Source: a virus
DNA: 64,000 nucleotides
Reading direction: 5' to 3' (one strand)
Virus genome (UHGV): UHGV-0311442
The translations under genes were made by a program, and so were the position numbers. A model generated the notes under the pieces. It was not told the DNA's origin. It made no database searches and worked only from the letters and a program-made list of their open reading frames with translations. Positions 4,348 to 42,526 of this stretch are shown here, piece after piece (within the stretch, counting starts at the first letter, position 1; each line of letters opens with the position of its first letter).

Positions 4348-7300
4348 ATGGCTAAAAAAGGTAAAGATGATTTCGATGAAATCGATCTTGATAACATGGA
4401 CGACTGGGACGATTTTGATGAGCCCCCTCGTCAACAAGACCAATCGCGTAACCCGGTCATGGACACATTTCGTGCTGCCCGTAAGTCGGCGTTGTCGACT
4501 ATCTGGCCCGAAAACAAACGTGATCAGGTTATTTTAAAAGGGATGCCTAAACCTGCGGCAGAAGCCTACGAAGGCTATCAAAACGTTAAAGCTGCAGGTC
4601 AAGACATTCTGGCCCATACGAAAGACGAGATTGAAAAGACGTCTCGCGTCGTCAAGATGCAAGCGAGACAGTTAGGTCCAACACTGAAACGGTATTTACC
4701 GGAATCCGTAACACGGAAAATCGACAAGTGGGCACGTAACGATCAAATCGACTATGGGAATTACGATCCTAAACAAGCGATGATGGATCGTGAGCTGGAC
4801 AGCGTGTTCTCAGGCGCACCGCAAACAGCGGACCAGCAACGTGAGGCGCAAGAGGGGATGGTTGAAGACCGCTTGCGCGACACGATTAAGGACATGAAGT
4901 CCGACGCACTGTTCCAGACCGTAATCGGTATTGCAAAAGACGTCAACTTAACGACTAGCCTAAGTCGTGGCGTGTTGTTGAATGTTCAGCGTAAGCAGTT
5001 AGAGCTGCAATATCGGACGCTGTTTGCTTTGCAGGATATTGCGAAACTCAAACAAGACGAGTTTGCACGCAACACCCCGGCATTAGAAGCCATCGTTAAG
5101 AACACGGCACTACCCGACTACGCGAAGGAAGAGTTTTCTGAAATTCGTTGGGCTAATGTAAAACGTAAAGCTGCGGAGTGGATGAACCCCTTACACTACG
5201 CAGATAATTTCATTGGCCAGATTCGCGAAAACGCGAAGAAGAAAATCTCGAACATCTTTAGTGATGGTCGTGGGATTCTAGAACAAGTTCTAGGGATGGC
5301 TCAGGAAGATGACTTTGACATGTCGGACAGCTCATCGTTGTCTCCTGACCGTCGTAACACAAACTCGCGCAATAAAGCGGCAGGTTTTGCAGGTGGTTGG
5401 TTAGCAAAACGTCTCCTACAACCACAGATCGAGCGACTTCAGAACTGGACGCGTGGCGAGCTAGAGAAAAACCCAGAAGTCATGAAACGCCTACAGTTGG
5501 CGAAGTATGGCTTTGGAAATTTGTCGTCTATTTCTAACTCGGCAATAGCGGGAGAAACAAGCGGCCCGTTAGCTGATCTGTTTCGACTAATGCACGATTT
5601 GGGGCTAGTTAACCCGCTACGTCGCGAAACGTTAGCATTAGACGATCGCTCTGCGGAATCTCTTTCTGCTGCGGCGAAGTTCGATCGTAAAGCTTACCTT
5701 AGTATCACAGAAGTTATTCCGACGTTACTGTCCGAGATTAACAAATCTATTCGTCGTGGGTATGGCGAACACCACGATCAGGTTTATGACTTGACCACGC
5801 GTGGTATGGTCGATCGTAAGGTTATTGGCAATCGTGTACGTAAGGCCGTTGCTAATGACGATCAGCGCAAACGTTTACAGACGTACATCAACGACACTGT
5901 CGACTTTATCGATAAAGATAAAACGCTTGATAGGAAAACACGTCAAGCGTTAGCGGACTACATCGAGTCTCGTGCCTCAGAAGGGAAAGCGTTCGATGTA
6001 GGGTCTTTATTGAAAGACCCGATGCACATGTATCGTTACATGAACGCAAACGCTGTGGAAGCGATTCAGGGTGTTTTAGAAGCCCGTTCTGCGGAACTGG
6101 TTGGTGGACACCATGAACTGAGTAACGCGATTTCAAACAAAATCGCCGCTATCCAGTCAACGATTCGCGCACGACAGGACACTGTTGATGCTGCGTCTGT
6201 GATTTACGGCGAGAATGCACTTCGTGATTCCGGTATTTTTAAATACGATGCGAAGAAAGACATTTTCGAGGTCGATAAGGACATTAACGATCCCTATACG
6301 TTATTTAATGACCTGTCGATGGGTAAGACCCGCTCTGGACGTTCGTTAACCCGTGAGCAAGAGATTCAGCGTAAATTGCAAAACGGTTCTGCGCTGGGTG
6401 ATTACTTGCGACGGATGGGTGCAGGCGCAGAGCCGAGCTTTGAAGACAAAGAACTGTCCAATGTACGTGGCGGTGGAAAAGGAGGTCGTGGTCGCGGTTT
6501 AAGCGCACGCCAACTCGCTGCGGTACTTTATGGAGAGAAATCCACTAACTTTGTTGAACTGTTAAGCAGTCGTCCAGACACGAACGCCGGGTTGGAACAG
6601 CAATTCGACCGTTTGATTGATGCTGTACGTAAACAGCCCGAATCTAGCATCGTGCAAGACATCCTCAAACACGTTAAGAACATGGATGAGGAAGGTATTC
6701 TTCTAGCCAGTTTAGGCGGTAGTCGTGATGACGGTGACGAACCTGAAAGTTCGGGTGAATCAGGCCGTAAACGTCGTCGTAAGCGCAAACGTATTGTACT
6801 AGGCGAGACAGGTTTGTTACGTCGCTGGGCTGGGGTGCTTTGGGATACCGGTTCTGGTGTAGGACGGTTTGGTAAGAATCTGTTCCTACGTGGGAAAGAT
6901 CGCCTACAAGCATTAGGTGGTTTTATTCGTGGGAAATTCTCAGGCGGTTCCTCCGAAGGTCCTGGCGTATTTAGCCGACTGAAAGGGTTAGTAACTGGTA
7001 CATTATCGACGGGTTGGAATTCTGCTGTAGCTTTCGGTAAAGGCGTTTTAGGCGTTCGCGACATCTACGATGAACGTGGTAACGTCGTATTACAAGGAAG
7101 TCGTTTAGAAGCTGGGGAATATTACCAGGCTGACCCGAAAACTGAGAAGCTGATTCAACTTAAAACTCTCGACGATATTAAACTGGGACGTGACATCGTC
7201 GACGAAGCGGGTAATTTAATCTTAGCTGCTGCTGATTTGGCTGCCGCAGGTAAACTGCGTTTCTACAAAGGCGGTAAAGTTCAAGCGCTTTTCCAGTACA

Positions 7301-10300
7301 TTTCTGGGAAGGCAGGAACGGCGGTAAACAAAGCTGTGACTTTACCGAAGAAACTTCTGGGTTTCATTTCGCCTAAAGCGGCTTCGTTGTTCGAGAAAGC
7401 ACGCGAGTGGTTAAATGAGGTTCCAGAGGGTGCAGAGAAAACCCGTTTACAAAGCATGATTTCCCGCGTAACGGGAATGCCAGCTCGTCTGTGGAACAAT
7501 GCAAAACGTGGGTTTGAGAAGCTCAAAGAGTTGGCTTCTGATAATCCGTTGACACGTTGGTGGCAGAACCGTAAGGAAGGGGGTTCTGGTGGTGGGTTTA
7601 GTGTGTTCTCATGGTCGAATGGCCGTAAAACTAACCACATCTTAATCCGTATCTACAAACTCCTTAACCGGAGATTGCCAGGTGAACCTGAAGATGACAC
7701 CTGGACAGAACAGATGGAGCGGAATACGGGGGCCAGTTCAGTTAAAGGATTATTCCAACGTGCTAAGGACATACGCGAAGGGTTCCGTGAACATTTTCAA
7801 GGGTTCCGGGATTGGCGTGGTCGGATGCGTGACAGAATGTCCCGTTACCGTAGTGCGGTAGGTGGTCGTCTTTCTCGTTGGGGTGGTGCAGCACGTGATT
7901 GGTTTGACCGTTTCCGTGGTCGTGCAAGCGATATGGTCGATACCTTCCGTGATCCGCGTTACGACATTGGAACACGTTATCGAATGGAGAGTCGTTTAGC
8001 AGGACGCGATGACGACGTTGCTGAGTTTTATCGTCAACACATCTACGCAAGAGGCAAGGTGTCTAAAACACGTATCATCGATGCGGCAAAAGAAGACTTG
8101 GATACCGTAACGGATAGCGCTGGACGTGTGATTAATAAAGGGAAACAGAAAGCCCGTAGCGTTGGGTCGGTTTTACTGGAACGCCTGAACCGAATGGTTA
8201 ATCTTCAGGAAATGTCGTGGTTTAATACCATGCGTGATTCTGCGGAAAAAGCAGGTGCTTCGGATGGTTTGTTAAGAACCATGTTCAGTAAGTTCGGTCA
8301 ACGTAACAAGCCACCTGCCAGTGATGAAAAACGCGATTACTTCCAGTTCTTCCGACGCCGTCGTCGCTCTAAGGAAGAGGAAAAGGCTAAGAAAGAGGCT
8401 GAGAAGAAAGGCGGTAAACGTGGGGTAATGGATTTCCTTAAAGGACTGCCGTTGGTAGGGCCGATTGTGAGTATTTTAGGCACAGTGGGTTCAATCTTAG
8501 GTAAAGTCGCAAAATGGGGAATCTTTAAGCCGGTTGGGTTTGCAGGTAAAGCGTTGTGGAACGTTGGTAAGTTTGCTGTGACCCGTTTGGCTGTTCCTGC
8601 GGTGAGTGCTGTCGCGACGGCAGCATCTGCAGTGGTAACTGCGGTTGGCTGGCCGATTATCGGTTTGGTCGCTGCAGGCGCTGCGCTGTCTTGGTTTGCG
8701 TATAAAACTGCAACCCGTGTGAATGCTCAGTATCTGGATAACATGCGATTGGCACAGTACGGATTTAGAGATCACGATGAGTGGTCTTCCGACGATGGCG
8801 CAAAAGCACGTTATTTAGAAGACAACTTGAAACCGTACATCTCTTATACAGAGAATGGCCAAGCACAGTTGCGTGGTTTGTCCGGTGACGACGTGAAGAA
8901 ACTGGCCGAAGGGTTTGGTACTAACGTAGAAGACAAAGGCGAAATGCTGGCGTTTACTGCGTTTATGTTACAACGTTTTGTGCCGATCTATTTACGTTGG
9001 ATTACGGCACTGAAATCCATGGATAATGATATCGCGTTAGCAGATGTCGGTAATCCTGCGAAAGTGTCGAAAGCGGACATGCTTACCATCTTTAACAAAA
9101 TGAAGATGACAAAAGATGCGCCTGCTTTTAAATCACTGACAGACCCCCGTAAAGTTAACCAAGGCTGGTTCTCTAAAGCGTGGGATTTCGTGACCTTCAC
9201 ACCGGCAGAATTTTTGTCAGGTGAAGAAGTTGTCGAAGCACAAGATCGTGTTTTCCGGTCTATCAACATGCGCCGTGACGATAAGCGTAAGGAAACAACT
9301 GGAGCCGGTGCTGTGCCTGAAGGACATAAAGTTGCTTCTGTGGCAGAATCTTCGCAGGTACTCGCGAAGAACGATACCGAGCGTAACGAAACTGTTGCTA
9401 AAGCTGAGGGTTGGGAAGACGGTACTGAACAGGTTCAAATTCAAGTTGACTGGAGAGCATTACCTGAGAAGAAAGATTTGGACGCGATGGAATCCGTCCG
9501 TTGGAAATCTTACGGTGTGAAATCTGTTAATGAGACAACACGTACCCTCTTTAGGTTGCTTGAGAAAGAAGTGTTGAAAGACACGGATATCAAAAATTGC
9601 ATTTATAAGGGCGATTGGAAGAAAGCAATTTCTGCGATTGCGCCTGATGCAATTGGTGGCCCAAAAGAGGAGCGTTACAAGAACTGGTTCTATAATCGAT
9701 TCTTACCTGTATTCATGACCTACGTTTATGGTGTAAAACGCTACGTACCTCATGCAGATCCGTTGGATTTGAAACTCACAGGGGGTTTCCTCTATGAGCT
9801 GGCACTGATGATGCGTGGTGCTTACAACATGAAAGGGGGTATCCGTCAGTCTGTGTGGGAAATCGCATTTAACCCGTTAGGAGGCGATGCGAATACCGAT
9901 GCAGGTTCAGTGAGGGAAGAATTAGCAACGCTGAAAGAGTTGTCTAAAGAACCCGATCTGGCTGTAAGGAACATGCTCAAAGAAACACCGAGCACACCTA
10001 AGCGTATGACATGGAAATCGCCAGCGACAAACTCCAGTGTCCATCAGACGAATGAAGATAACAAAGAGCGTTATAAGGGAATTAACAGCTATGGCGAAGC
10101 TTCAAACGACGGATACTTACCGAAAGGTGGTCAGTCCTACGGTACGCCAGGTGACTTATCACAAGTTGTTGGCGATATGGGTATAGGGAACTATGCGAAG
10201 TATTCCACTGGACAATCTGGCATCACCCTCGGTGAGTTACAAGACGGTGATTACAAATCGTTAGTGACTAAATACCCAAGGGAAATGCTTGGCAAACCGA

Positions 10301-11514
10301 TGCAGTCAAATACTGAAGCCATCAAGTCATTGATTATTGACGCGGCAAACATGGTGGGTGTTCCACCATCTGTTGCGATTGCAATGGCACAAGCAGAATC
10401 TGGCTTACAGTATGGCAACTATCCTGGCGCATCCTCTGGTAGACCGAGAAGTAATAAGATGTCTGCCGCTGGCCTGTTCCAATTTACCAATGGCACTTGG
10501 AATGGGGTTATGAAGCAGTACGCCCGAAGATACGGTATTCCACAAACCGACCAGTTCGACCCGTGGGCTAACGCAATCTTAGGTGTTAACTTCATTAGAG
10601 ACAACATCAAGACCGCACAAAAGGATCTGGGTGGAATTGCCCCACCTCCGGCAGTAGCGTACCTATACCACTTCTTAGGCCCAGGTGGTGGTGCTGAGTT
10701 CCTTAAAGCCTGGAAAACCAATCCTAACGGGTCGCCCGACAAAGTGAAGTACATCACACCTGCCGTTCTTAACGGTAATGAAGGTGTTTTCTATATCATG
10801 AACGGGAAGAAACGCGTTAGGATGCGTACGATCGGTGAGGTTGTCGAGGAACTGAACCGCCGTATGGGTGCGGTTGGAACCAACGAGATTGCAGCAAATC
10901 CTGCGTCTGCGAAAAACATGACGAAAGGGTTATCACCAGTTCCATCGTCTCCTGCAATTGCTGCTGGCGCAGCTAACGATCCGTCTATTGCTGGTCCGGC
11001 AGATAACCTGCCAGCCGCGAACGAGGCGAATCGTGACTCCGCTTTAGCAGACAAAGGTGCGATGGGCGCTGAAGATATTAAAGCTGCAACGGGTGGTGGT
11101 CCGGCTGTGCCGAGTCCTGGCGGTGACGTCACGCCAAGTGATGCGTCTGTCGTTGTTGAAACGGTGGGTCAAAATGCGCGTGCTGACGGTCTGGGCGAAG
11201 AGGAAGTTGCCAAAGTAAAAGAAGGTGCTAGACAGCAAATGGAGAAATCCGCACGTCCTGCACCAACGGTAACGTCTGATGCACAGACTACACCAACAGT
11301 GAACAGTGGTGATCCGATCAGCGTACAGCAGCTGGCGGTTGCAAAAGAGTCTGCGGGCTATCTGAGAGAGATTGTAACAATTCTTCGTCAGAGACCACAG
11401 GCTATGCAGCCATCCCCAGCGACCTCGGCAGCTTCTGCTCCGGGTTCAGCATCACGTAACATCGCGGTTGAACAACCTGCCCGCCAACTCGACGTTGGTC
11501 GTAAACGGGCGTAA
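4348..11514 (+). CDS. Giant virion/tail-associated protein with a lytic transglycosylase (SLT) domain; phiKZ gp181-like cell-wall-degrading or tape-measure-like protein
   Basis: Track ORF of 2388 aa. SLT motifs AIAMAQAESGLQYG...AAGLFQFTNGTWNGVMKQY...AVAYLYHFLGPGG lie at nt ~10300-10760, with the putative catalytic Glu codon at 10396-10398. A cluster of hydrophobic helices lies at nt ~8440-8710. Polybasic and Arg-rich tracts and an Ala/Pro/Gly-rich C-terminal tail are present. A terminator follows at 11523-11551. Confidence 0.8.
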   Translation: MAKKGKDDFDEIDLDNMDDWDDFDEPPRQQDQSRNPVMDTFRAARKSALSTIWPENKRDQVILKGMPKPAAEAYEGYQNVKAAGQDILAHTKDEIEKTSRVVKMQARQLGPTLKRYLPESVTRKIDKWARNDQIDYGNYDPKQAMMDRELDSVFSGAPQTADQQREAQEGMVEDRLRDTIKDMKSDALFQTVIGIAKDVNLTTSLSRGVLLNVQRKQLELQYRTLFALQDIAKLKQDEFARNTPALEAIVKNTALPDYAKEEFSEIRWANVKRKAAEWMNPLHYADNFIGQIRENAKKKISNIFSDGRGILEQVLGMAQEDDFDMSDSSSLSPDRRNTNSRNKAAGFAGGWLAKRLLQPQIERLQNWTRGELEKNPEVMKRLQLAKYGFGNLSSISNSAIAGETSGPLADLFRLMHDLGLVNPLRRETLALDDRSAESLSAAAKFDRKAYLSITEVIPTLLSEINKSIRRGYGEHHDQVYDLTTRGMVDRKVIGNRVRKAVANDDQRKRLQTYINDTVDFIDKDKTLDRKTRQALADYIESRASEGKAFDVGSLLKDPMHMYRYMNANAVEAIQGVLEARSAELVGGHHELSNAISNKIAAIQSTIRARQDTVDAASVIYGENALRDSGIFKYDAKKDIFEVDKDINDPYTLFNDLSMGKTRSGRSLTREQEIQRKLQNGSALGDYLRRMGAGAEPSFEDKELSNVRGGGKGGRGRGLSARQLAAVLYGEKSTNFVELLSSRPDTNAGLEQQFDRLIDAVRKQPESSIVQDILKHVKNMDEEGILLASLGGSRDDGDEPESSGESGRKRRRKRKRIVLGETGLLRRWAGVLWDTGSGVGRFGKNLFLRGKDRLQALGGFIRGKFSGGSSEGPGVFSRLKGLVTGTLSTGWNSAVAFGKGVLGVRDIYDERGNVVLQGSRLEAGEYYQADPKTEKLIQLKTLDDIKLGRDIVDEAGNLILAAADLAAAGKLRFYKGGKVQALFQYISGKAGTAVNKAVTLPKKLLGFISPKAASLFEKAREWLNEVPEGAEKTRLQSMISRVTGMPARLWNNAKRGFEKLKELASDNPLTRWWQNRKEGGSGGGFSVFSWSNGRKTNHILIRIYKLLNRRLPGEPEDDTWTEQMERNTGASSVKGLFQRAKDIREGFREHFQGFRDWRGRMRDRMSRYRSAVGGRLSRWGGAARDWFDRFRGRASDMVDTFRDPRYDIGTRYRMESRLAGRDDDVAEFYRQHIYARGKVSKTRIIDAAKEDLDTVTDSAGRVINKGKQKARSVGSVLLERLNRMVNLQEMSWFNTMRDSAEKAGASDGLLRTMFSKFGQRNKPPASDEKRDYFQFFRRRRRSKEEEKAKKEAEKKGGKRGVMDFLKGLPLVGPIVSILGTVGSILGKVAKWGIFKPVGFAGKALWNVGKFAVTRLAVPAVSAVATAASAVVTAVGWPIIGLVAAGAALSWFAYKTATRVNAQYLDNMRLAQYGFRDHDEWSSDDGAKARYLEDNLKPYISYTENGQAQLRGLSGDDVKKLAEGFGTNVEDKGEMLAFTAFMLQRFVPIYLRWITALKSMDNDIALADVGNPAKVSKADMLTIFNKMKMTKDAPAFKSLTDPRKVNQGWFSKAWDFVTFTPAEFLSGEEVVEAQDRVFRSINMRRDDKRKETTGAGAVPEGHKVASVAESSQVLAKNDTERNETVAKAEGWEDGTEQVQIQVDWRALPEKKDLDAMESVRWKSYGVKSVNETTRTLFRLLEKEVLKDTDIKNCIYKGDWKKAISAIAPDAIGGPKEERYKNWFYNRFLPVFMTYVYGVKRYVPHADPLDLKLTGGFLYELALMMRGAYNMKGGIRQSVWEIAFNPLGGDANTDAGSVREELATLKELSKEPDLAVRNMLKETPSTPKRMTWKSPATNSSVHQTNEDNKERYKGINSYGEASNDGYLPKGGQSYGTPGDLSQVVGDMGIGNYAKYSTGQSGITLGELQDGDYKSLVTKYPREMLGKPMQSNTEAIKSLIIDAANMVGVPPSVAIAMAQAESGLQYGNYPGASSGRPRSNKMSAAGLFQFTNGTWNGVMKQYARRYGIPQTDQFDPWANAILGVNFIRDNIKTAQKDLGGIAPPPAVAYLYHFLGPGGGAEFLKAWKTNPNGSPDKVKYITPAVLNGNEGVFYIMNGKKRVRMRTIGEVVEELNRRMGAVGTNEIAANPASAKNMTKGLSPVPSSPAIAAGAANDPSIAGPADNLPAANEANRDSALADKGAMGAEDIKAATGGGPAVPSPGGDVTPSDASVVVETVGQNARADGLGEEEVAKVKEGARQQMEKSARPAPTVTSDAQTTPTVNSGDPISVQQLAVAKESAGYLREIVTILRQRPQAMQPSPATSAASAPGSASRNIAVEQPARQLDVGRKRA

Positions 11515-16297: not shown

Positions 16298-17332
16298 TTA
16301 CACCGCGACAGGCATGGCGATGTGCGGGTGTGATTGGTAACCGACTACTTCAAAGTCCTCGTATTTGTAGTCGAAGATAGATTCGGGTTTACGTTTAATA
16401 ACCAATTTAGGTAACGGGTACGGCTCACGAGTCAGCTGGAGTTTTATTTGATCGAGGTGGTTCAGATATAAATGCACATCGACTCCACTATAAACTAACT
16501 CATCGGGAACCATATTCAATTGTTGGGCAACCATATGAGTTAGCAGAGCGTATGACGCGATGTTGAACGGTTTTCCTAATGCGACATCGTTGCTCCGCAT
16601 CATGTAAAAACATGAAAGCTTACGGCGTGGAATACCTTCACGATCTAAAGTTTCATGAAGACGTTCTTCATCATCAATATCTTCGTGATTAATAAGTGGT
16701 GCGTTCGCAAATTTTTCCGGTTCATTTGCTTCGTACCAATCCAGTCGCTCAAGCAGTGTCATTTCCGTTGTGTAGAATTGGAAATAGTTGTGGCATGGGT
16801 TAAGTGCCATATCGTCCAGGTCACCTACATTCCAGGCACTAACAATAATACGTCGGGAGTCAGGGTCTTCACGAAGTTGCTGGATAACTTTGCTGATCTG
16901 GTCATGTGCTTTCTCATAGACCAAATACGTCGTACCATCTTCCTTCATATTCCCAATATACTTGTAACCCCGCTGCATTAGTTGTTGTGTACGTCTTACG
17001 TCATGACACTCCACAACTTTACAGTCACGCCATTCGCGCCACTGTTTACCATAAACTGGTCCTAAGTTCCCCTCTTCGTCACTCCATTCGTTCCAAATTT
17101 TTACCCCGTTCTCTTGCAGGTACTTCACGTTAGTGTCACCATTTAAGAACCACAGCAGTTCATGAATGATACTTTTCAGGTGAACCTTTTTCGTAGTAAC
17201 TAATGGGAAACCTTCTTTTAGGTCGAAACGTAGTTGGCGACCAAATACAGAAAGTGTCCCTACGCCTGTACGGTCTTTCTTGACAACACCGTTATCCAGA
17301 ATGTCTTGCATTAATGCTAAATACTGTTTCAT
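16298..17332 (-). CDS. thyA: Thymidylate synthase (ThyA family) with two insertions
   Basis: Track ORF of 344 aa. Near-identical blocks to E. coli ThyA: [60 protein letters not shown] (catalytic Cys), [41 protein letters not shown]. Confidence 0.93.
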
Positions 17333-19184: not shown

Positions 19185-19224
19185 AAAAAATGAAAATACC
19201 CTACTCCTGTCTAGGAGTAGGGTA
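19185..19224 (-). terminator. Rho-independent terminator (minus strand), CCCTACTCC hairpin family
   Basis: Stem taccctactcct/aggagtagggta with loop gtct. The minus strand continues ttttcatttttt. Confidence 0.75.
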
Positions 19225-19228
19225 GGTG

Positions 19229-19888
19229 TTACATACGGGTAACTGAATCCCAGTAATCGCGAAGATATTCTTGATCCTCAGGATCTTTCGGTGTAGCCGG
19301 AATGTGGCCGTCAAACTCAAACGGAATTACAGACAGAACATCCGCAATCTCGTAACGCTCGACTTCCAGTTCAACTTTCACCCAGTCACCGACGCTGGTA
19401 CTACTACGCATCTCGGTGAGGAGATCGTTAAAGTCACCCGAAACTTCAATTGCGGGGTGTCCGGTGGTGATACTGAAAATATCAATATCCCAATGCTTAG
19501 CACCTTTATCGGCTAATTCGCCCGGTTCTAAGTGGATACGCTTCACCAGGTGCGCCAAATAACCGTCCTTGTAAAAAGAGAGTGCAGAACTAATACCGAT
19601 ATCCGAATTCTCTTCAACCTTTCCGTCCAGGAATTTACGCTTAAGCGTTAGCTGTGCTGTACCGTCTTCTTTAATACGGATACGGCGACGCCCGCCTTCT
19701 ATCGGCATGAGGATGTCCATGAACATCTTAGTGGACTGTGCGTGTAGCCAATCCCATCCCGCTTGCGTAGGTTTAACCCAGACGCAATATTCCTTTTCCA
19801 CTTCGCGTTTAATGGATTCGCCCGCAACGCGAATAACCTCTTCTTCCTGCGCTTTTTCCAATTGCGCAAGGGTATCGAATAATCCCAT
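19229..19888 (-). CDS. CYTH-like (triphosphate tunnel metalloenzyme-like) protein
   Basis: Track ORF of 219 aa. By-eye CYTH pattern: N-terminal ExExK (REVEKEY, nt ~19783-19806), RRRIRIKEDGTAQLTLKRK, KHWDIDIF, and C-terminal alternating Glu strand WVKVELEVE (cf. E. coli YgiF EIELKF...LRIRG...MTMK...ELELEL). The start overlaps the stop of the upstream gene (TAATG). Confidence 0.45.
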   Translation of the reverse strand: MGLFDTLAQLEKAQEEEVIRVAGESIKREVEKEYCVWVKPTQAGWDWLHAQSTKMFMDILMPIEGGRRRIRIKEDGTAQLTLKRKFLDGKVEENSDIGISSALSFYKDGYLAHLVKRIHLEPGELADKGAKHWDIDIFSITTGHPAIEVSGDFNDLLTEMRSSTSVGDWVKVELEVERYEIADVLSVIPFEFDGHIPATPKDPEDQEYLRDYWDSVTRM

Positions 19889-20709
19889 TAGATTAATCCC
19901 ATACTTTCACTGACGCTCGTAATGTCGAACGTTGTGTCGTTAAAGTCGATGTTTTCTACAATAGAAACCACCAGATTAGGAAGCCATTCCGAATGGGGTG
20001 GTGTAATAACCCGGCCGTTCATAACGTAGTAATGCAAGAACGGTAATCCCATCGAATGGCAGTACGATAACACATTACCTAAGCAGCTTCCGTCAAACTT
20101 CAAGAGTCGGAGCTTACGCAATAATGCGTTTTGAAATGCACCGTTCGCGTAATTGCTAAACTCGCCAGGCCGATAATCCGTGCCCCCGTAGATACTCGCC
20201 TTTAATCGACGACCGTGTTGTATACATTCAGCCCCAGTCAGGGTGCGTAATAAACGGATGTCAGGATATTCAGTTTCCAAACGACCCAACGCGTTTATTC
20301 CGTAGCCCTTGTAGAACAGATAGTCTACGATCCTTAAATAATGATAGTAGCCTTCTAACGTTAAAAACTGACCATGTATCGTGTCGAATTTCGCACCGTT
20401 AGGTTGCGCGTAGAAGTTACTGATCATTTTCCCTACGGTAGTACGACCGTTAGAGTAAAGGTTAAGATGGTTGATACCATCGGTAAAAGGGAGTTTTTCG
20501 GGTAACGCACAAACGTAGCCTAAACGACGAAGGTATAGGACATAAACAAAGCGCTCATCAGGAGTAAGCACGATGTTTGACGCGTTAACGTATCCATTAG
20601 GATTATTTCGCCCAGGTTGATAACCCAGCGTTAATGCCAGAGCGTGATTGTCTTCGCCCTGACTTTTGATCTTCTTTAATACGGAACGCAGTAATTGTGG
20701 TTCGGACAT
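19888..20709 (-). CDS. NADAR (YbiA/DUF1768)-like domain protein with an ~85-aa N-terminal extension
   Basis: The track ORF starts at a TTG at 20730. I prefer the ATG at 20709 (MSEPQLL...), 6 nt after AAGAGG and clear of the upstream stop. LNLYSNGRTTVGKMISNFYAQPNGAKFDTIHGQFLTLEGYYHYLRI aligns by eye with E. coli YbiA INFYSTSDDYGDFSNFAAWPIKVDGKTWPTSEHYFQAQKF. Confidence 0.5.
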   Translation of the reverse strand: MSEPQLLRSVLKKIKSQGEDNHALALTLGYQPGRNNPNGYVNASNIVLTPDERFVYVLYLRRLGYVCALPEKLPFTDGINHLNLYSNGRTTVGKMISNFYAQPNGAKFDTIHGQFLTLEGYYHYLRIVDYLFYKGYGINALGRLETEYPDIRLLRTLTGAECIQHGRRLKASIYGGTDYRPGEFSNYANGAFQNALLRKLRLLKFDGSCLGNVLSYCHSMGLPFLHYYVMNGRVITPPHSEWLPNLVVSIVENIDFNDTTFDITSVSESMGLI

Positions 20710-20719
20710 AACCGGCCTC

Positions 20720-21994
20720 TTAAATAGCAAAATAGTCTTCCACGATTTTATCGGTAGACTGGTAACTTACACTGCCCGCAGCAATCACGTAATTACGTTT
20801 CTCAGTGGTCAGTAGCGCCTGAATCGCATTTACGCCTGCATAGGTGTAAAGTTTAAGTTCAGTCATTTCCGGCGTGATGTTTTTCGCTTTGTCCCACTTT
20901 GCATCTAATCCTTTAAATAGCGTTAATAGACGAGTACCATACGTTTTGAAACTGACACCAGGTTCAACCCGTAGGTTAGCCATGAGGTTCTGGATAACGG
21001 TGGCTGCGATCTGGGTCCCTTGTCCCGGTTGCAGTTTATCCAGATAGTATTCCGTTGAATCGAGATTACCTGTCGCTGCCGCCTGAATCATCAACTCGCC
21101 GTACAGTACCTCTTTCGCTTGTGCATCAGTAATCGCTTGAAGCATCGGCTCAATTTTAGCCGGTAAACCATAACTGTTCAGTTTGGTAGATAGGCCATAA
21201 ATCAGCGCTGAAGAGGTATTAATGTCTAACGTGGAGAAACTGTCGCTGCCTTTAAAGCTGTTAATCAGGTTATCGATGGCTAAGAAGTCGTCTAAGTCTT
21301 TGTAGCTGTCGAAAGTATGTTGTACGTCATCAACGATCGAGGTGATTTGATAACGCATACTGTTGACTTCAGACATAAACCCGTTGACTTCTTGGCTAAC
21401 TTCCGAGGGGAGTTTAGCCAGTTGCCCAGCAATGTTCATCGTCCCTTCGAGACGTTTTTTCACCGAGTTAAAGTCAGTACCGATACCTGATAAAACAGAG
21501 TCGGTTAAGCTGCCGATGCTGTCCCACCCTTTACCTAACAGCTTCCCCATTCCACCTGGACTTAGGTAGTCTAACGCCTTTAGACCATCTTCATCCTTTT
21601 TCTTAAAGGGTTCAGAAACGTCACGCTTTTGTGGGTCGAGGACAGGAAGCGTTTCTTTGGTGTTAGATGCAAAACCGGGAACCTTTTGTCCTGGCGACAC
21701 CCCCGAGGCTGAACTCCCCGCAGTCTTAGTTCCCCCAACACTGGCGGTATCACTACCGCCAAAAAGGTTACCAATTTTGCTGGTCAGCTCGTTACCACCG
21801 CTAAGCAGTTTGTTGAATGTTTCACCAGCACGTTCTGATAATCGGTTGACGTTATCGACCGTGTTCTTAATACCACGCTCCGCATTTTCCACCGTTGTTT
21901 GTACGCGGTTTGCGGCGTTCTTTGCCGTATTAACGGAATTATCGATTGCCGACTGACCTTTATTTATCTGACTGGTTATTTGGTCGATTTTCAT
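20720..21994 (-). CDS. Hypothetical protein with a repetitive helical N-terminus
   Basis: Track ORF 20720..22021 starts with TTG. The ATG at 21994 (MKIDQITSQ...) lies 6 nt after GGAG. The N-terminus has repeated N/V/A-rich helical segments (NSVNTAKNAANRVQTTVENAERGIKNTVDNVNRL). Confidence 0.55.
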   Translation of the reverse strand: MKIDQITSQINKGQSAIDNSVNTAKNAANRVQTTVENAERGIKNTVDNVNRLSERAGETFNKLLSGGNELTSKIGNLFGGSDTASVGGTKTAGSSASGVSPGQKVPGFASNTKETLPVLDPQKRDVSEPFKKKDEDGLKALDYLSPGGMGKLLGKGWDSIGSLTDSVLSGIGTDFNSVKKRLEGTMNIAGQLAKLPSEVSQEVNGFMSEVNSMRYQITSIVDDVQHTFDSYKDLDDFLAIDNLINSFKGSDSFSTLDINTSSALIYGLSTKLNSYGLPAKIEPMLQAITDAQAKEVLYGELMIQAAATGNLDSTEYYLDKLQPGQGTQIAATVIQNLMANLRVEPGVSFKTYGTRLLTLFKGLDAKWDKAKNITPEMTELKLYTYAGVNAIQALLTTEKRNYVIAAGSVSYQSTDKIVEDYFAI

Positions 21995-22805
21995 TCTGGT
22001 CTCCAATTTGGTATTCGTCAAGGTTTACCGTGACCTGAACTTCGTAGATTTTATTGTCTTTCTGACGCCTTAAAGTCAAAAGGATTTCGAAACTACGAAC
22101 ATCAATTGCCTTGAGTACCCTCATAAACCATTTCCAGGAAAACTTCTTTTTTAACCTTAGATTGTGCTGCATGTTGTGTCGCAAATCATTTCGTTTCGAC
22201 GGTGTTTGCTCACAGTTAGCAGGATCGTTAACGAAGTTTGTGGAAAGACGGTACCACCAGTCCGCATTCATTTTCATGTTTGCGAAGATAGTCCAAGTTA
22301 ACCGAGATAACGGATGTACCATCATCTTTGCGGTCTCACCACAGTTCTGGAAATAACGGTTCAGTTGCGCAGTTGCAGACTCTTTAGGTCGTTCGTCGTT
22401 ATCTTCGAACAAATCCCGAGCGAGATCTTCACGCACGCGTGTGGTAATTTCAGATACGGTTTTTGTTTTGAAGTGTCCTCGGTAAGTGGTTACACAAATC
22501 CGCAGTGTCTCCACTCCGGTAATCACCAACCCTTCTGTAAAACCTCGCCAGGTAAGATCGACAGGTAGTGCAGGGATGTTACCTGAACTCAGCTTCGTGG
22601 AGATACGTTGTATTCGATCGTCCATCGTTGCTTTTGAACGTGTTTTAAATTCTGGAGACAGAATATGTTTGGCGACGGCGAGTTTATAATCCGAAGGCTT
22701 CCATCCGATCAATTCTTTATAATTCCAATATAGTGTTTGAAGTGGTCCGCCTGCACGTTCGTCTTCAGCGTCCACGACCACACTTACTTTTTTGCTATCC
22801 ATCAC
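21960..22805 (-). CDS. Hypothetical protein
   Basis: Track ORF of 281 aa with an ATG-ATG start after AAGGTG. Its 3' end overlaps the next gene by ~35 nt. Confidence 0.55.
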   Translation of the reverse strand: MMDSKKVSVVVDAEDERAGGPLQTLYWNYKELIGWKPSDYKLAVAKHILSPEFKTRSKATMDDRIQRISTKLSSGNIPALPVDLTWRGFTEGLVITGVETLRICVTTYRGHFKTKTVSEITTRVREDLARDLFEDNDERPKESATAQLNRYFQNCGETAKMMVHPLSRLTWTIFANMKMNADWWYRLSTNFVNDPANCEQTPSKRNDLRHNMQHNLRLKKKFSWKWFMRVLKAIDVRSFEILLTLRRQKDNKIYEVQVTVNLDEYQIGDQNENRPNNQSDK

Positions 22806-28290: not shown

Positions 28291-29190
28291 TTATTTCCCA
28301 CGATAAAATCCAGAAATGTAACTCGGCGCTATCCATCGCCATTCGCGCCAGCGCATTTCTGACATTTTACCACACCATACACGCTTCCAATGCGCACGAC
28401 GGATATGTGCGGCGCAATAAATCGCCAAACAAACCTCGTGTCCTTCCTTGCGTTGCTGCTCTATATCTTCCCATTGTACCGGACTTACGTCTAAAACGAC
28501 TGCTTCACTACGTGGGCGAATTTCTGTATCAGGAACATAACGAATGGACCTTCCGCGAAATTCTTTTTTCTCGCGCTCAGTTCGTTTAATTCGTGATGAA
28601 AGATATAACCCGATGTAGACGGCGTCGAGTAGTCGCTGATTCTCCTTAACCGAAGTAAGGAGCGGCTTTAACTCCACGAAATCATCATTACTTTTATCGA
28701 TCGTGTAAATCTCAAACTCCATGTATACCGACTCGTCATGTTCTTCGCATGACATCACAAAGAGAACTTCTTCACCTTCGTAAAGACGTCTTCCGATAAA
28801 TAACGTGATCGGACATTCGTCGAGATTTACGGTAACCGAGAAAGTAAATGAAGGGATGGTTTCTATCCAGAAGTACGGGATATTTTTTAGTCTCTCAGTT
28901 TTTGCTAAGAGTGCCATCAGTTCTTCATCCGAGATGATTTCAACAGCAGCGTATTGCCATCCTAGTCCCAGGGACTGCTTAATCAGTCTGGGAATCTGTT
29001 CGGTAACGCCATACTCACGATAGGTCGGATCTTTAACTGGCATAAACGTTACAGGTATTTGACGTTTATGCTCGTTAATGAACCGAATAAAGCGGCACTG
29101 ATCCAATCCGTGAATTGTTTGGTGTGCCTTTTCTATCTGTTCGCTCATGCGTCTTAGCGCTTTCCCGTAAAGTCTATTATTCGTTGTCAT
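28291..29190 (-). CDS. Hypothetical protein; paralog of 29216..30142 with a conserved basic/Trp-rich C-terminus
   Basis: The track ORF extends to 29286. I prefer the ATG at 29190 (MTTNNRLYGK...) after TTTAGGAGC, which removes the overlap with the upstream gene. The C-terminus is AAHIRRAHWKRVWCGK...WRWIAPSYISGFY. Confidence 0.6.
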   Translation of the reverse strand: MTTNNRLYGKALRRMSEQIEKAHQTIHGLDQCRFIRFINEHKRQIPVTFMPVKDPTYREYGVTEQIPRLIKQSLGLGWQYAAVEIISDEELMALLAKTERLKNIPYFWIETIPSFTFSVTVNLDECPITLFIGRRLYEGEEVLFVMSCEEHDESVYMEFEIYTIDKSNDDFVELKPLLTSVKENQRLLDAVYIGLYLSSRIKRTEREKKEFRGRSIRYVPDTEIRPRSEAVVLDVSPVQWEDIEQQRKEGHEVCLAIYCAAHIRRAHWKRVWCGKMSEMRWREWRWIAPSYISGFYRGK

Positions 29191-29215
29191 TTTAATGCTC
29201 CTAAACACTTTTAGC

Positions 29216-30142
29216 TTAATTGTGGGGTACGTAGCCACGGACAAATGTCGGTGGAATCCAGTAAAGTTTTCTCTTCCTTTCACCATTTCTAGGACCGACC
29301 CAATATCTGCGCCAGTGCGCGCGACGAATATGTGCGGCCTTGGCGTGTTTGATACCTTCCATGGTTTTCAAGTCAGTGTTAAACCCTTTTAGATAATTCA
29401 CTTGTCCTGGCGTGATATCTATCTTAACATCGCGTTCACGAGGTTTAACGTCGTAACTAATACTACCGTTCTTTTTGATTTCCTTGAACTTAATATCATT
29501 AAAAGACTCCCTGTAATTAGGCGGGATTAGCGTACAGAGAAATATCAACGATATGGCGGTTTTGGCCAGTGATAGCCATAACGTCTTCTCTTGTTCGGTC
29601 TGTACGCCAGTTGTATAATCGATTTCAACAAGCCCGTTTCCAACACTACATATCTCTAACGAGCAGGTGGCGATCGTGGTAACGCCTTCTGTTAACCCGT
29701 AATCAGTATTTGTAGCAATTATAATAAACCTTCTATTCCCATTTTTTCGATAACCGAGAAAGAAAGTCTCATCTTCTTTACCTACATCGATTGCTACAGT
29801 CCAAGTAGGTATAAAGTCTAACCACTCTTCAGGGAATTTACTGGGCATCTCAGTCTCGAAAACAAGTTCTCTAAGTGCTCGATTGGATATTAAGGAAGCG
29901 CCCCCGTATAGCCATCCAATTGCCAATGTTTGTGCGTGAAGGGAACGGGGATCTTTGAGACCTAACTCAGCGTCGTATGGTATAAAGGCATTAGTTAAAT
30001 GCTTACGATTCTTTTTTATCCATTTCGAGACGGGATTTTCTTTTGTTTGATTTTCTTCCATGACATTTTCTAGATGCTGACTCCCCATTTGTCTAAGGCA
30101 GTCTTTAATACCTTTTACTTTTTTACTTTTGTACAAATACAT
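29216..30142 (-). CDS. Hypothetical protein; paralog of 28291..29190
   Basis: Track ORF of 308 aa. The C-terminus AAHIRRAHWRRYWVGPRNGERKRKLYWIPPTFVRGY and internal blocks (LAIGWLYGGASLIS, FIPTWTVAIDVG) match the downstream paralog. Confidence 0.6.
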   Translation of the reverse strand: MYLYKSKKVKGIKDCLRQMGSQHLENVMEENQTKENPVSKWIKKNRKHLTNAFIPYDAELGLKDPRSLHAQTLAIGWLYGGASLISNRALRELVFETEMPSKFPEEWLDFIPTWTVAIDVGKEDETFFLGYRKNGNRRFIIIATNTDYGLTEGVTTIATCSLEICSVGNGLVEIDYTTGVQTEQEKTLWLSLAKTAISLIFLCTLIPPNYRESFNDIKFKEIKKNGSISYDVKPRERDVKIDITPGQVNYLKGFNTDLKTMEGIKHAKAAHIRRAHWRRYWVGPRNGERKRKLYWIPPTFVRGYVPHN

Positions 30143-42010: not shown

Positions 42011-42035
42011 GTGCCCTAATGATAATATCTATTTA
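42011..42035 (-). promoter_or_regulatory. Promoter-like motif, class B (minus orientation: TAAATAGATATTATCATTAGGGCAC)
   Basis: Same TAGATATTATC core as 32521-32545, again beginning with the TAG stop of the upstream gene. It lies upstream of the SLT gene. Confidence 0.4.
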
Positions 42036-42526
42036 AAAGAGTTTGGAATTAATGACTCTGCTTCTCGGTACAGCTTATCGGGTAAGTATAACGTGTAGTG
42101 TTGTCTCCTCGGTTCAAGTTTTTTGTAAAGCCACAAAAAGATTTCTTGTCTTTCCCAGGAATCTAACCACCCATTTGCCATCCCCAGTGGAGGGATAGCA
42201 ACGCTGGTATCCAGTTCCTCAACACAATCTGCTAATGCGGTAATGCCCGCAGTAACATAAGAAACCTGGGACTTTAAACGCCAATGTGTTTTCGTTGGGA
42301 GCAAGATGCACTTTTCATCAGGGTAAACGTAAACGCTTCCAATCTTAATTTCGTCTTCGCGACACCGCTTACGGTAATCTTGATAAAGGTTGGGGTAGCG
42401 TTCACGGCACGCCAGTGCAATACCGCGACCCATCGCTCCTACGCAGTTAATGGTAACGACTTTATAGTCTTCGGGCGCATTAAAAAGATCGTTACCAATT
42501 TCAGATTCTTTACGTACCGTTAACAT
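42029..42526 (-). CDS. Macrodomain protein, DarG/TARG1-like class (ADP-ribose hydrolase-like)
   Basis: The track ORF starts at a TTG at 42589. The ATG at 42526 (MLTVRKE...) is preferred but uncertain. VVTINCVGAMGRGIALACRERYPNLYQDYRKRC...LLPTKTHWRLKS...VAIPPLGMANGWLDSW matches by eye the DarG-type pattern NTVGVMGKGIALQFK..FP..Y..Y...C...NFPTKxHWRxxS...SxAxPxLGCGxGGLxW. Confidence 0.7.
   Translation of the reverse strand: MLTVRKESEIGNDLFNAPEDYKVVTINCVGAMGRGIALACRERYPNLYQDYRKRCREDEIKIGSVYVYPDEKCILLPTKTHWRLKSQVSYVTAGITALADCVEELDTSVAIPPLGMANGWLDSWERQEIFLWLYKKLEPRRQHYTLYLPDKLYREAESLIPNSFK

What the first reader, a model, noticed from the sequence alone, without database searches (positions are those of the whole stretch)
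19888..20709. NADAR-like gene: possible reversal of guanine ADP-ribosylation (anti-DarT1-type counter-defence)
Residues ~88-135 (LNLYSNGRTTVGKMISNFYAQPNGAKFDTIHGQFLTLEGYYHYLRI) match the signature stretch of YbiA/NADAR proteins (INFYS...FSNF...P......W.TSEHYFQA.K). Later segments (LTGAECIQHGRRLK, AFQNALLRKL) are compatible with the rest of the fold.

Established knowledge: NADAR domains include hydrolases that remove ADP-ribose from guanine bases written by DarT1-type toxins, and YbiA is an N-glycosidase.

The protein has an extra ~85-aa N-terminal region, and its stop codon overlaps the start of a CYTH-like gene. Together with the DarG-type macrodomain at 42029..42526, the phage may carry erasers for both known chemistries of DNA ADP-ribosylation.
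Basis: partly seen in the sequence, partly recalled or inferred. Interest (0 to 1): 0.6.

Follow-up and report, generated by a model that had tools for sequence, protein, structure and literature searches.

The report
Divergent NADAR-fold enzyme in jumbo phage
The gene encodes a very divergent member of the NADAR enzyme superfamily, whose tested members strip ADP-ribose off guanine in DNA. It sits in a nucleus-forming-type jumbo phage that also carries a DarG-type macrodomain, so it is a plausible but untested second anti-DarT eraser, not a new kind of system.

Summary
The ORF is real: window 19888-20709, minus strand, 273 aa, with an AAGAGG ribosome-binding site. The NADAR resemblance is real homology, not chance.

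- **Direct family models:** Pfam, NCBIfam and PADLOC give no hit, and PHROG 652 is 'unknown function'.
- **Profiles:** a profile of the wider family aligns with YbiA-type NADARs (hhalign 95%, E 2e-8) and with T4 gp30.3/AdfN (95%, E 6e-8).
- **Active site:** the catalytic Glu (E119), the Gly-Arg motif (G166-R167) and the last-strand His of 'phage NADARs' (H226) are essentially invariant. The catalytic Lys is Arg (R126).
- **Extra domain:** a 73-aa N-terminal domain precedes the core.
- **Context:** the gene lies between orthologues of the SPN3US tail protein gp223 and head protein gp225. Its own orthologue, gp224, is absent from the SPN3US virion proteome.
- **Partner gene:** the macrodomain ORF at 42029-42526 is DarG/AdfM-type.

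Removal of ADP-ribose from guanine is the most likely activity but is untested. The 'CYTH-like' label for the downstream gene could not be confirmed. Phage NADAR counter-defence (AdfN) is already known, so this is a new variant of a known kind.

The parts
19888..20709 (-). CDS of the NADAR-like protein (273 aa, 30.9 kDa, pI 8.5); orthologue of SPN3US gp224 (ACQ60_gp042) and of Asesino_246 / Stratton gp247
   Evidence: ORF list; sequence; tblastn against phages; SPN3US annotation; mass and pI; identical protein called on two other contigs
20716..20721 (-). Shine-Dalgarno-like AAGAGG, 6 nt upstream of the ATG, overlapping the stop codon (20720-20722) of the upstream tail-protein gene
   Evidence: read directly from the sequence
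20491..20709 (-). N-terminal extension, residues 1-73 (helix, helix, strand, helix, strand). It is absent from the 150-200 aa single-domain relatives and longer (about 130 aa) in many other jumbo-phage orthologues.
   Evidence: alignment A2; AF2 secondary structure, pLDDT 65-96; short forms match only query residues 74-260
19924..20490 (-). NADAR-fold core, residues 74-262. Conserved residues: D77-G78, H81, N83, Y85-S86, S97-N98-F99, E119 (catalytic Glu), R126 (Lys equivalent), G166-R167, A195, K199, H226-Y227-Y228 and W242.
19886..19890 (-). TAATG junction: the stop codon of the NADAR-like gene overlaps the start codon of the downstream head-protein gene by one base
   Evidence: sequence
19229..19888 (-). 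Downstream gene in the same apparent transcription unit: 219-aa orthologue of SPN3US gp225, a head protein with a 24-aa propeptide removed at an AXE site. The window protein has VAGE|S at residues 21-25.
   Evidence: alignment A5; masses 25.1 to 22.3 kDa match the published value; PMC10052503 text and supplement
20720..21994 (-). Upstream gene: about 424-aa orthologue of SPN3US gp223 (45.3 kDa), classed as a tail protein by virion mass spectrometry
   Evidence: PHROG 5028, with weak tail and baseplate hits; SPN3US annotation and mass; PMC10052503 supplement; gene call of 424 aa on L012 and L013
19197..19224 (-). Intrinsic-terminator-like hairpin (12-bp stem, 6 G-C pairs, T-run) directly after the head-protein gene. 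The two other terminator-like matches on this strand within 19229-22021 are far weaker: a 7-bp stem with 3 G-C pairs at 20571-20551, inside the NADAR-like CDS. The scan as a whole was not enriched over shuffles (8 found against 6.7 expected).
   Evidence: consensus scan
42029..42526 (-). Separate gene that is a possible functional partner: a DarG/AdfM-type macrodomain, the family that erases thymine ADP-ribosylation
   Evidence: Pfam Macro 27.2 bits; PADLOC DarG 3.4e-37; orthologue of the SPN3US macro protein and 37% identical to phiKZ-like homologues; AdfM paper PMC13309987

Best explanation
The gene encodes a non-virion enzyme of the NADAR (YbiA-fold) superfamily.

**What it is.** It belongs to a large, mostly phage-borne, uncurated clade (PHROG 652). 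That clade shares the last-strand histidine of T4 gp30.3/AdfN-type 'phage NADARs'. In SPN3US/Asesino-like jumbo phages it has gained an N-terminal domain.

**Most likely mechanism (inferred).** It acts as an N-glycohydrolase. The ADP-ribose pyrophosphate would be held by R126 and G166-R167, and the distal ribose positioned by E119 and H226. The enzyme would then cleave the ribose-N2 bond of ADP-ribosyl-guanine in single-stranded nucleic acid. This would undo DNA ADP-ribosylation written by DarT1-type or pierisin-type toxins. It would complement the phage's DarG/AdfM-type macrodomain, which handles ADP-ribosyl-thymine.

**Shown here:** the fold, the homology, residue conservation, gene context and the absence of the orthologue from the SPN3US virion proteome.

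**Inferred:** the substrate, the chemistry and the counter-defence role.
For: **Fold**
- The AF2 model has pLDDT 92.9 and pTM 0.90.

**Sequence**
- Family profile against genuine NADARs: 21-32 bits, against at most 5.4 bits for controls.
- hhalign against YbiA-type NADARs: 95.4%, E 1.7e-8 over 144 columns.
- After removing every family member with any individually detectable similarity to NADAR or gp30.3: still 86.9%, E 4e-6.
- hhalign against T4 gp30.3: 94.7%, E 5.7e-8 over its full length.
- Profile against all PDB sequences: only 8bau (2.5e-5) and 2b3w (2.9e-5) are significant.
- 9 of 137 distant members hit PF08010 and 3 hit PF08719.

**Residues**
- E119 is conserved in 153/153 family sequences. 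H226, Y227 and Y228 are conserved in about 99%.
- R126 is Arg in 20/20 long forms. G166-R167 and K199 are conserved.
- E119 and R126 correspond to E88/K95 of E. coli C7 NADAR and E36/K43 of T4 AdfN, which are needed for activity (PMC11543638; PMC11825919).

**Precedent**
- Three unrelated phage NADARs counter DarTG1.

**Partner**
- A DarG/AdfM-type macrodomain lies in the same window.
Against: - No direct hit to any curated NADAR model. However, PADLOC also misses the validated T4 AdfN.
- Foldseek against the PDB finds nothing.
- The Lys equivalent is Arg. In E. coli C7 NADAR, K95R keeps in-vitro activity but fails to rescue DarT1 toxicity.
- The equivalent of K115 (K75 in the Phytophthora enzyme), needed in vivo for the DarT1 antitoxin, is Ile163 in all long forms.
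- YbiA and T4 gp30.3 hydrolyse guanine-ADPr in vitro yet do not rescue DarT1 toxicity in E. coli, so in-vitro activity does not guarantee protection.
- The gene sits between tail and head genes, not in an early region like T4 30.3. Short relatives do lie in early or DNA-metabolism regions.
- In a nucleus-forming phage the enzyme would need import into the phage nucleus, which is unknown.
- The equivalence of H226 with the catalytic E/D/H position rests on the T4 alignment. The YbiA alignment is ambiguous there, and I could not superpose coordinates.
Confidence: 0.45

Rival explanations
1. It is an active NADAR-fold hydrolase, but its natural substrates are soluble NAD+/ADP-ribose-derived molecules such as immune signals, toxic ADPr derivatives or modified nucleotides, not ADP-ribosylated DNA.
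For: [quoted passage not shown]
- Members of this family are fused to, or adjacent to, DUF4326, SLOG (YpsA, YAcAr, DprA-like), DUF488-N3a, Macro and Metallophos domains. That is the network those authors describe.
- The DNA-facing Lys of DarT1-linked NADARs (K115 in E. coli C7) is not kept in the long forms.
Against: - Every NADAR family tested so far acts on guanine-ADPr in nucleic acid.
- No soluble-signal substrate has been demonstrated for any NADAR.
- The fusions were seen in the short forms, not in the jumbo-phage long form.
- Other fusions are to DNA enzymes (UDG, PD-(D/E)XK, DnaE), which point to DNA.
Confidence: 0.25
2. It is a morphogenesis or assembly factor that has kept the NADAR fold but works non-enzymatically. 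An example would be a chaperone or scaffold for the neighbouring tail or head proteins.
For: - Its position between a tail-protein gene and a head-protein gene is conserved in five jumbo-phage genera.
- It is translationally coupled to the head-protein gene, and no strong terminator lies inside the unit.
- PMC11825919 mentions another phage NADAR that does not need enzymatic activity.
Against: - Polar active-site residues (E119, H226, N83, R167, K199) are near-invariant across 153 sequences. These include single-domain relatives located in non-structural regions.
- The orthologue is absent from SPN3US virions, and no assembly phenotype is reported.
Confidence: 0.07
3. It is a YbiA-type housekeeping N-glycosidase that removes reactive riboflavin-pathway or similar ribosylamino-pyrimidine intermediates.
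For: - The YbiA family is the best profile match.
- Thymidylate synthase and MazG genes lie within 5 kb.
Against: - The glutamate that defines the YbiA family in the last strand is a histidine here.
- No riboflavin genes are nearby.
- The clade is essentially phage-borne.
Confidence: 0.05
4. The NADAR resemblance is a chance motif match, and the protein belongs to an unrelated fold.
For: - No Pfam, NCBIfam or PADLOC hit.
- Foldseek against the PDB is empty.
- The first hhalign, with the narrow 35-sequence alignment, gave only 7.6% probability.
Against: - Profile and profile-profile statistics with controls.
- At least 14 NADAR-annotated viral proteins appear among the BFVD hits.
Confidence: 0.02

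Closest known systems
T4 gp30.3 = AdfN ('phage NADAR', Pfam PF08010 Phage_30_3)
   Same: - A phage-encoded orphan NADAR.
- hhalign 94.7%, E 5.7e-8 over the whole T4 protein.
- Shared LEG catalytic-Glu motif and a basic residue seven positions later (K43 in T4, R126 here).
- Shared G-x-x-A-x-x-x-G-R motif and a His in the last strand (LKHS in T4, LHYY here).
   Different: - No PF08010 hit for this protein.
- It has a 73-aa N-terminal domain and a conserved insert, YGGTxYRPGxFS (residues 174-185).
- It carries the family-specific DGxxHxNxYS and HYY motifs.
- Arg replaces Lys.
- It is encoded between tail and head genes, not in an early region.
- AdfN activity and anti-DarTG1 function are proven experimentally (PMC11825919). 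Neither has been tested for this protein.
DarG1 / DarT1-associated NADAR antitoxins (E. coli C7, Geobacter lovleyi 8BAT; BC4488 family)
   Same: - The catalytic Glu and the Gly-Arg motif are present.
- Both carry an N-terminal extension in front of the YbiA-like core.
   Different: - No DarT gene is adjacent.
- The last-strand catalytic residue is His, not Asp.
- The K115 equivalent is Ile.
- The extension is not detectably related: the match to 8BAT is weaker than to the extension-less YbiA.
E. coli YbiA and Phytophthora nicotianae NADAR (8BAU; Pfam PF08719)
   Same: - Same order of secondary-structure elements.
- E48/E43, K55/K50, G78-R79 and A100/K104 line up with E119, R126, G166-R167 and A195/K199.
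   Different: - About 15% identity, and below Pfam detection.
- Glu125 is replaced by His226.
- The DxxWG loop is not conserved.
- Extra N-terminal domain and insert.
AdfM (phiKZ gp104 / Asesino gp217), the chimallivirus DarG2-like macrodomain
   Same: It has the same proposed logic: a phage-encoded orphan antitoxin-like eraser of DNA ADP-ribosylation in the same phage lineage. An AdfM-type gene is present in this window at 42029-42526.
   Different: - Unrelated fold (macrodomain), acting on thymine-ADPr written by DarT2.
- Nuclear import and activity are shown experimentally for AdfM, and not for the NADAR-like protein.

Membership tests
NADAR superfamily (YbiA-like fold) | [quoted passage not shown] | tested here: met
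   [not shown]
NADAR superfamily (YbiA-like fold) | Significant match of the protein itself to the curated model Pfam PF08719 (NADAR) | tested here: not met
   No hit at E<=1 for the protein, or at E<=10 for any of its 35 closest relatives. NCBIfam gives none.
NADAR superfamily (YbiA-like fold) | Statistically supported sequence homology to bona fide NADARs at profile level | tested here: met
   Family HMM: YbiA 26 bits and other PF08719 proteins 21-32 bits, against at most 5.4 bits in 732 controls. hhalign 95.4%, E 1.7e-8, and 86.9%, E 4e-6 after stringent pruning. Profile against PDB: only 8bau and 2b3w, at E about 3e-5.
NADAR superfamily (YbiA-like fold) | Catalytic Glu at the start of the first core helix (E48 in YbiA, E43 in the Phytophthora NADAR, E88 in E. 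coli C7, E36 in T4) | tested here: met
   E119 aligns to it in every alignment and is present in 153/153 family members.
NADAR superfamily (YbiA-like fold) | Phosphate-binding Lys seven residues after the Glu (K50 in the Phytophthora NADAR, K95 in E. coli C7, K43 in T4) | tested here: inconclusive
   It is Arg126 in 20/20 long forms, Lys in 29/44 forms of 170-205 aa, and not conserved in forms under 170 aa. K95R in E. coli C7 is active in vitro but does not rescue in vivo.
NADAR superfamily (YbiA-like fold) | Hydrolysis of ADP-ribosyl-guanine (N-glycosidic bond) | not testable with these tools
   Needs an enzyme assay.
Phage NADAR / gp30.3 / AdfN (PF08010) | Histidine in the last beta-strand in place of the YbiA Glu or DarG1 Asp | tested here: met
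   H226 aligns with the His of T4 'LKHS' and is present in about 99% of the family. The alignment to YbiA is ambiguous in this segment. No coordinate superposition was possible.
Phage NADAR / gp30.3 / AdfN (PF08010) | Match to Pfam PF08010 (Phage_30_3) | tested here: not met
   No hit for the window protein. One of its 35 close relatives hits at E 0.24. 9 of 137 distant family members hit, the best at 1.1e-13.
Phage NADAR / gp30.3 / AdfN (PF08010) | Core domain only, without extensions (PMC12945103) | tested here: not met
   A 73-aa N-terminal domain and an insert at residues 174-185 are present.
Phage NADAR / gp30.3 / AdfN (PF08010) | Necessary and sufficient for phage resistance to DarTG1 | not testable with these tools
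   Needs phage genetics.
DarG1 (DarT1-linked NADAR antitoxin) | Encoded next to a DarT1 ADP-ribosyltransferase gene | tested here: not met
   The neighbours are orthologues of the SPN3US tail protein gp223 and head protein gp225. Nothing ART-like was found among the ten neighbouring ORFs scanned with PHROGs or Pfam.
DarG1 (DarT1-linked NADAR antitoxin) | Catalytic Asp (D171) in the last strand, and a conserved Lys (K115) needed in vivo | tested here: not met
   H226 replaces the Asp, and Ile163 sits at the K115 (K75 in the Phytophthora NADAR) position in 20/20 long forms.
YbiA family N-glycosidase | Conserved Glu (E125) in the last strand | tested here: not met
   The last strand reads LHYYV, with no Glu in the segment aligned to LVEHT.

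The most novel reading that the evidence does not exclude
The jumbo-phage long form may be a functionally distinct NADAR. It has a new N-terminal domain, an Arg-for-Lys swap, loss of the DarG1-type DNA-facing Lys, a conserved YGGTxYRPGxFS insert and expression alongside virion genes. These could adapt it to a substrate or a moment that no known NADAR serves. One possibility is import into the phage nucleus to clear ADP-ribose (or another N-ribosyl adduct) from replicated DNA just before packaging. Another is destruction of a host ADPr-derived signal that has not yet been assigned an eraser.
Probability: 0.18. Interest if true: 0.65.

Novelty: new variant of a known kind. Interest (0 to 1): 0.4.

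Why it matters
- **An annotation for a large 'dark' family.** PHROG 652 and its relatives give 716 cluster representatives at 50% identity, many of them in Ackermannviridae, Vibrio phages and SPN3US/Erwinia-type jumbo phages. All are currently labelled hypothetical. This work gives them a structural and mechanistic annotation.
- **A possible second layer of protection.** If the activity is confirmed, nucleus-forming-type phages of this lineage would carry erasers for both known DNA ADP-ribosylation chemistries: NADAR for guanine and AdfM macrodomain for thymine. This would extend the recent finding that the phage nucleus alone does not protect against DarT toxins.
- **A test set for substrate specificity.** The clade-specific substitutions offer a natural set of variants for asking what determines NADAR substrate and in-vivo specificity. 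The NADAR papers flag that as an open question.

Tried and rejected
- **Curated family models on the single protein:** Pfam, NCBIfam and PADLOC gave nothing. Scanning all 35 close relatives against Pfam at E<=10 also gave no NADAR hit.
- **phmmer against PDB sequences:** only a spurious MsbA match at E 0.98.
- **First hhalign, with the narrow 35-sequence alignment:** only 7.6% probability. It became decisive only after the family was widened with the representative search.
- **Megablast of the region against phage genomes:** no match, so the phage itself is not in INPHARED.
- **'CYTH-like' neighbour:** a six-orthologue profile against the PDB gave nothing. The single-sequence AF2 model was unusable (pLDDT 33).
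- **Virion-packaged (injected) enzyme idea:** rejected for the SPN3US orthologue. gp224 is missing from a proteome table that lists gp223 (tail), gp225 (head) and even trace non-virion proteins.
- **Prohead-protease processing:** the NADAR-like protein contains no AXE cleavage motif.
- **A second, canonical NADAR in the window:** none found in a six-frame scan.
- **Literature on the orthologues:** nothing on SPN3US gp224 or Asesino gp246. The supplement of the Aravind survey was not held, so I cannot tell whether they had already counted this clade as NADAR.
Full report
**1. The observation**

The finding's coordinates hold a clean ORF on the minus strand, 19888-20709: ATG start, 273 aa, 30.9 kDa, pI 8.5. 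An AAGAGG site lies 6 nt upstream of the ATG and overlaps the stop codon of the preceding gene. The in-frame TTG at 20730 is not needed, because gene calls on two independent contigs that encode the identical protein start at the same Met. The other two quoted segments are at 157-170 and 191-200. The stop codon overlaps the next gene's ATG by one base (TAATG).

**2. Is it NADAR-like?**

Direct searches say no:
- No Pfam, NCBIfam or PADLOC hit for the protein.
- No NADAR hit in any of its 35 closest relatives at E<=10.
- PHROG 652 ('unknown function') at 2e-66.
- Nothing by phmmer against PDB sequences.

Structure and profiles say yes:
- An AlphaFold2 model built on 35 homologues is confident (pLDDT 92.9, pTM 0.90).
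- BFVD Foldseek lists the protein's own family first, then at least 14 'NADAR domain' proteins of giant viruses and phages at marginal E-values.

A profile search of 1.84 billion representatives shows that the protein belongs to a large family. There are 716 representatives at E<=1e-3, mostly single-domain proteins of 150-200 aa. I then ran the following tests:
- A 153-sequence profile of the core domain scores genuine NADARs at 21-32 bits (YbiA 26, T4 gp30.3 25.8). The maximum over 732 reversed or shuffled controls is 5.4 bits.
- hhalign against a YbiA-type alignment gives 95.4% probability, E 1.7e-8, over 144 columns spanning the whole domain.
- I removed every family member with any individually detectable similarity to NADAR or gp30.3, leaving 69 sequences. 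hhalign still gives 86.9%, E 4e-6.
- hhalign against T4 gp30.3 alone gives 94.7%, E 5.7e-8, over its full length.
- A family profile that excludes the window protein, searched against all PDB sequences, finds only 8bau and 2b3w as significant hits (about 3e-5).
- Among 137 distant members, 9 reach PF08010 (Phage_30_3) and 3 reach PF08719.

**3. Anatomy**

Residues 1-73 form a separate small alpha/beta domain. It is absent from the short relatives and longer (about 130 aa) in many other jumbo-phage orthologues. Residues 74-262 are the NADAR core. It has the same order of elements as YbiA: a strand, the SNF loop, a hairpin, five helices, a hairpin and a C-terminal helix.

Mapped on the published active site (PMC11543638; alignments; conservation):

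| Residue here | Equivalent | Conservation |
|---|---|---|
| E119 | E48 YbiA, E43 Phytophthora, E88 E. coli C7, E36 T4 | 153/153 |
| R126 | K55, K50, K95, K43 | Arg in 20/20 long forms; Lys in most 170-205 aa forms |
| G166-R167 | G78-R79 (pyrophosphate binding) | conserved |
| A195 / K199 | A100 / K104 | conserved |
| H226 (LHYYV) | His of T4 'LKHS' | about 99% |
| Ile163 | K75 Phytophthora, K115 E. coli C7 | Ile in 20/20 long forms |

- The H226 position distinguishes the families: Glu in YbiA, Asp in DarG1 and His in phage NADARs (PMC11125620; PMC12945103).
- K115 is needed in vivo for the DarT1 antitoxin, and its equivalent is lost in the long forms.
- Features specific to this family are D77-G78-x-x-H81 before the first strand, Y227-Y228, and a YGGTxYRPGxFS insert (174-185) found only in the long forms.

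**4. Context**

The window is from an unclassified jumbo phage. Megablast finds no match, and the best phage relatives for this protein are only 41-47% identical. They are Erwinia phages Stratton and Asesino, Salmonella phage SPN3US and other Erwinia jumbo phages. Asesino is a nucleus-forming chimallivirus (PMC11724907 title; PMC13309987).

- **Synteny.** The order 280-aa gene, 430-aa gene, NADAR-like gene, 220-aa gene, followed some genes later by thymidylate synthase, is kept in Seoulvirus, Erskinevirus, Machinavirus and Wellingtonvirus. In Derbicusvirus the first four genes are in the same order, but thymidylate synthase was not within the region fetched.
- **Gene numbering.** Matching masses fix the SPN3US numbering. 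The upstream gene is gp223 (45.3 kDa). The downstream gene is gp225 (25.1 kDa, or 22.3 kDa after removal of 24 residues).
- **Virion proteome.** In the SPN3US virion proteome, gp223 is a tail protein and gp225 is a head protein cut by the prohead protease at an AXE site. gp224, the NADAR-like orthologue, is not in the table at all, although trace 'non-virion' proteins are listed (PMC10052503).
- **Propeptide site.** The window's downstream protein has the matching VAGE|S site at residues 21-25.
- **Transcription unit.** A 12-bp-stem terminator-like hairpin follows that gene at 19224-19197. The only other terminator-like match on this strand within the three genes is a weak one (7-bp stem, 3 G-C pairs) inside the NADAR-like CDS, and the scan overall was not enriched over shuffles.

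The enzyme is thus probably co-transcribed and translationally coupled with virion genes, yet it is not packaged.

By contrast, short relatives lie in early or DNA-metabolism regions. In Vi01 they are near rIIB and topoisomerase II. In a Vibrio phage they lie between nrdD/G, an exonuclease and dCMP deaminase. In one metagenomic contig the gene sits next to a DUF488-N3a gene.

Some family members are fused to DUF4326, SLOG domains, DUF488-N3a, Macro, UDG, PD-(D/E)XK, Metallophos or a DnaE polymerase. Aravind and colleagues describe this same network around phage NADARs (PMC7824862 and PMC9503650). They may therefore already have counted this clade as NADAR. I could not check their supplement.

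**5. The macrodomain**

The ORF at 42029-42526 matches Pfam Macro (27.2 bits, above the cut-off) and PADLOC DarG (3.4e-37). It is orthologous to the SPN3US macro protein and 37% identical to the phiKZ-like homologues. PhiKZ gp104 and Asesino gp217 were recently shown or predicted to be AdfM, a nucleus-imported eraser of DarT2 thymine ADP-ribosylation (PMC13309987). No second, canonical NADAR is present in the window.

**6. Mechanism and rivals**

The best-supported reading is an active NADAR glycohydrolase that removes ADP-ribose from guanine in nucleic acid, giving an AdfN-like counter-defence. The reasons are:
- The fold and the residues needed in tested NADARs are retained.
- Three unrelated phage NADARs neutralise DarTG1.
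- The His-type and Asp-type enzymes tested so far act on guanine only.

I put the fold assignment at about 0.95 and this functional reading at about 0.45. Several points count against the functional reading:
- The Lys-to-Arg change and the lost K115 equivalent.
- In-vitro activity does not always give protection in vivo.
- The gene sits in a late-looking, structural-gene context.
- Nuclear import is unknown.

The main rival, at 0.25, is action on soluble ADPr-derived molecules, as the Aravind group proposed for most phage NADARs. A non-enzymatic assembly role (0.07), a YbiA-type metabolic N-glycosidase (0.05) and chance similarity (0.02) are unlikely, for the reasons listed under each rival.

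**7. Novelty**

Phage NADARs as orphan antitoxin-like anti-DarTG1 enzymes are established (2025). So are the abundance of NADAR domains in jumbo phages (2021-22) and AdfM in chimalliviruses (2026).

What is new here:
- An uncurated, highly divergent clade (PHROG 652) is assigned to the His-type NADARs with explicit statistics.
- Its jumbo-phage long form carries an added N-terminal domain and altered basic residues.
- The gene has a conserved position between a tail gene and a head gene.
- It co-occurs with an AdfM-type macrodomain.

That makes it a new variant of a known kind: a good, directly testable lead, but not surprising to a specialist.

**8. Not resolved**

- The 'CYTH-like' label for the downstream gene. 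There are no family or PDB-profile hits, and the single-sequence model failed. The protein does have E-x-E-x-E, RRRxR and VELEVE strands that would suit a triphosphate-tunnel fold, so the idea remains open.
- The exact geometry of H226 in the active site. I could not export coordinates to superpose them.

Noticed in passing
window 19229-19888 (-): The 219-aa downstream gene is the orthologue of SPN3US gp225, a head protein whose 24-residue propeptide is removed by the prohead protease. The window protein has the matching VAGE|S (AXE) site at residues 21-25.
   Followed up: partly
window 42029-42526 (-): The macrodomain ORF matches PADLOC DarG (3.4e-37) and Pfam Macro. It is an orthologue of the SPN3US macro protein and a homologue of phiKZ gp104/AdfM, the recently described chimallivirus anti-DarT2 eraser.
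   Followed up: yes
window 16298-17332 (-); L012 13687-15805; L013 7174-8487: Thymidylate synthase is a single 344-aa ORF in the window. On two contigs that carry the identical NADAR-like protein it is split into about 252 and 95 aa. One contig has a GIY-YIG/I-TevI-like gene in the gap and the other has only a gap of about 260 nt. This looks like an intron and homing-endonuclease presence/absence polymorphism, as in T4 td.
   Followed up: no
window about 28291-30142 (-) (= L012 568-2419): Two tandem paralogous genes whose products carry precomputed Pfam hits to AcrVA2-like (PF26125) on the matching contig. They may be anti-CRISPR-related genes.
   Followed up: no
window 19197-19224 (-): A terminator-like hairpin (12-bp stem, T-run) lies immediately after the head-protein gene and marks the end of the apparent tail / NADAR-like / head transcription unit.
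   Followed up: partly
window 20720-21994 (-): The upstream gene is the orthologue of SPN3US gp223, a 45-kDa tail protein by mass spectrometry. It has a coiled-coil N-terminus and weak PHROG hits to baseplate hub and tail proteins.
   Followed up: partly
family members P0217, P0252, P0299, P0277, P0245, P0279 (not in the window): The NADAR-like core occurs fused to DUF4326, SLOG (YpsA, YAcAr), DUF488-N3a, PD-(D/E)XK, Metallophos and, in one 2338-aa protein, a DnaE-type polymerase. In L008 it overlaps a DUF488-N3a gene by 4 nt.
   Followed up: partly
window 4348-11514 (+): A 2388-aa ORF whose counterpart on contig L012 carries a lytic transglycosylase (SLT) domain. It is probably a giant virion-associated cell-wall-degrading protein.
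   Followed up: no
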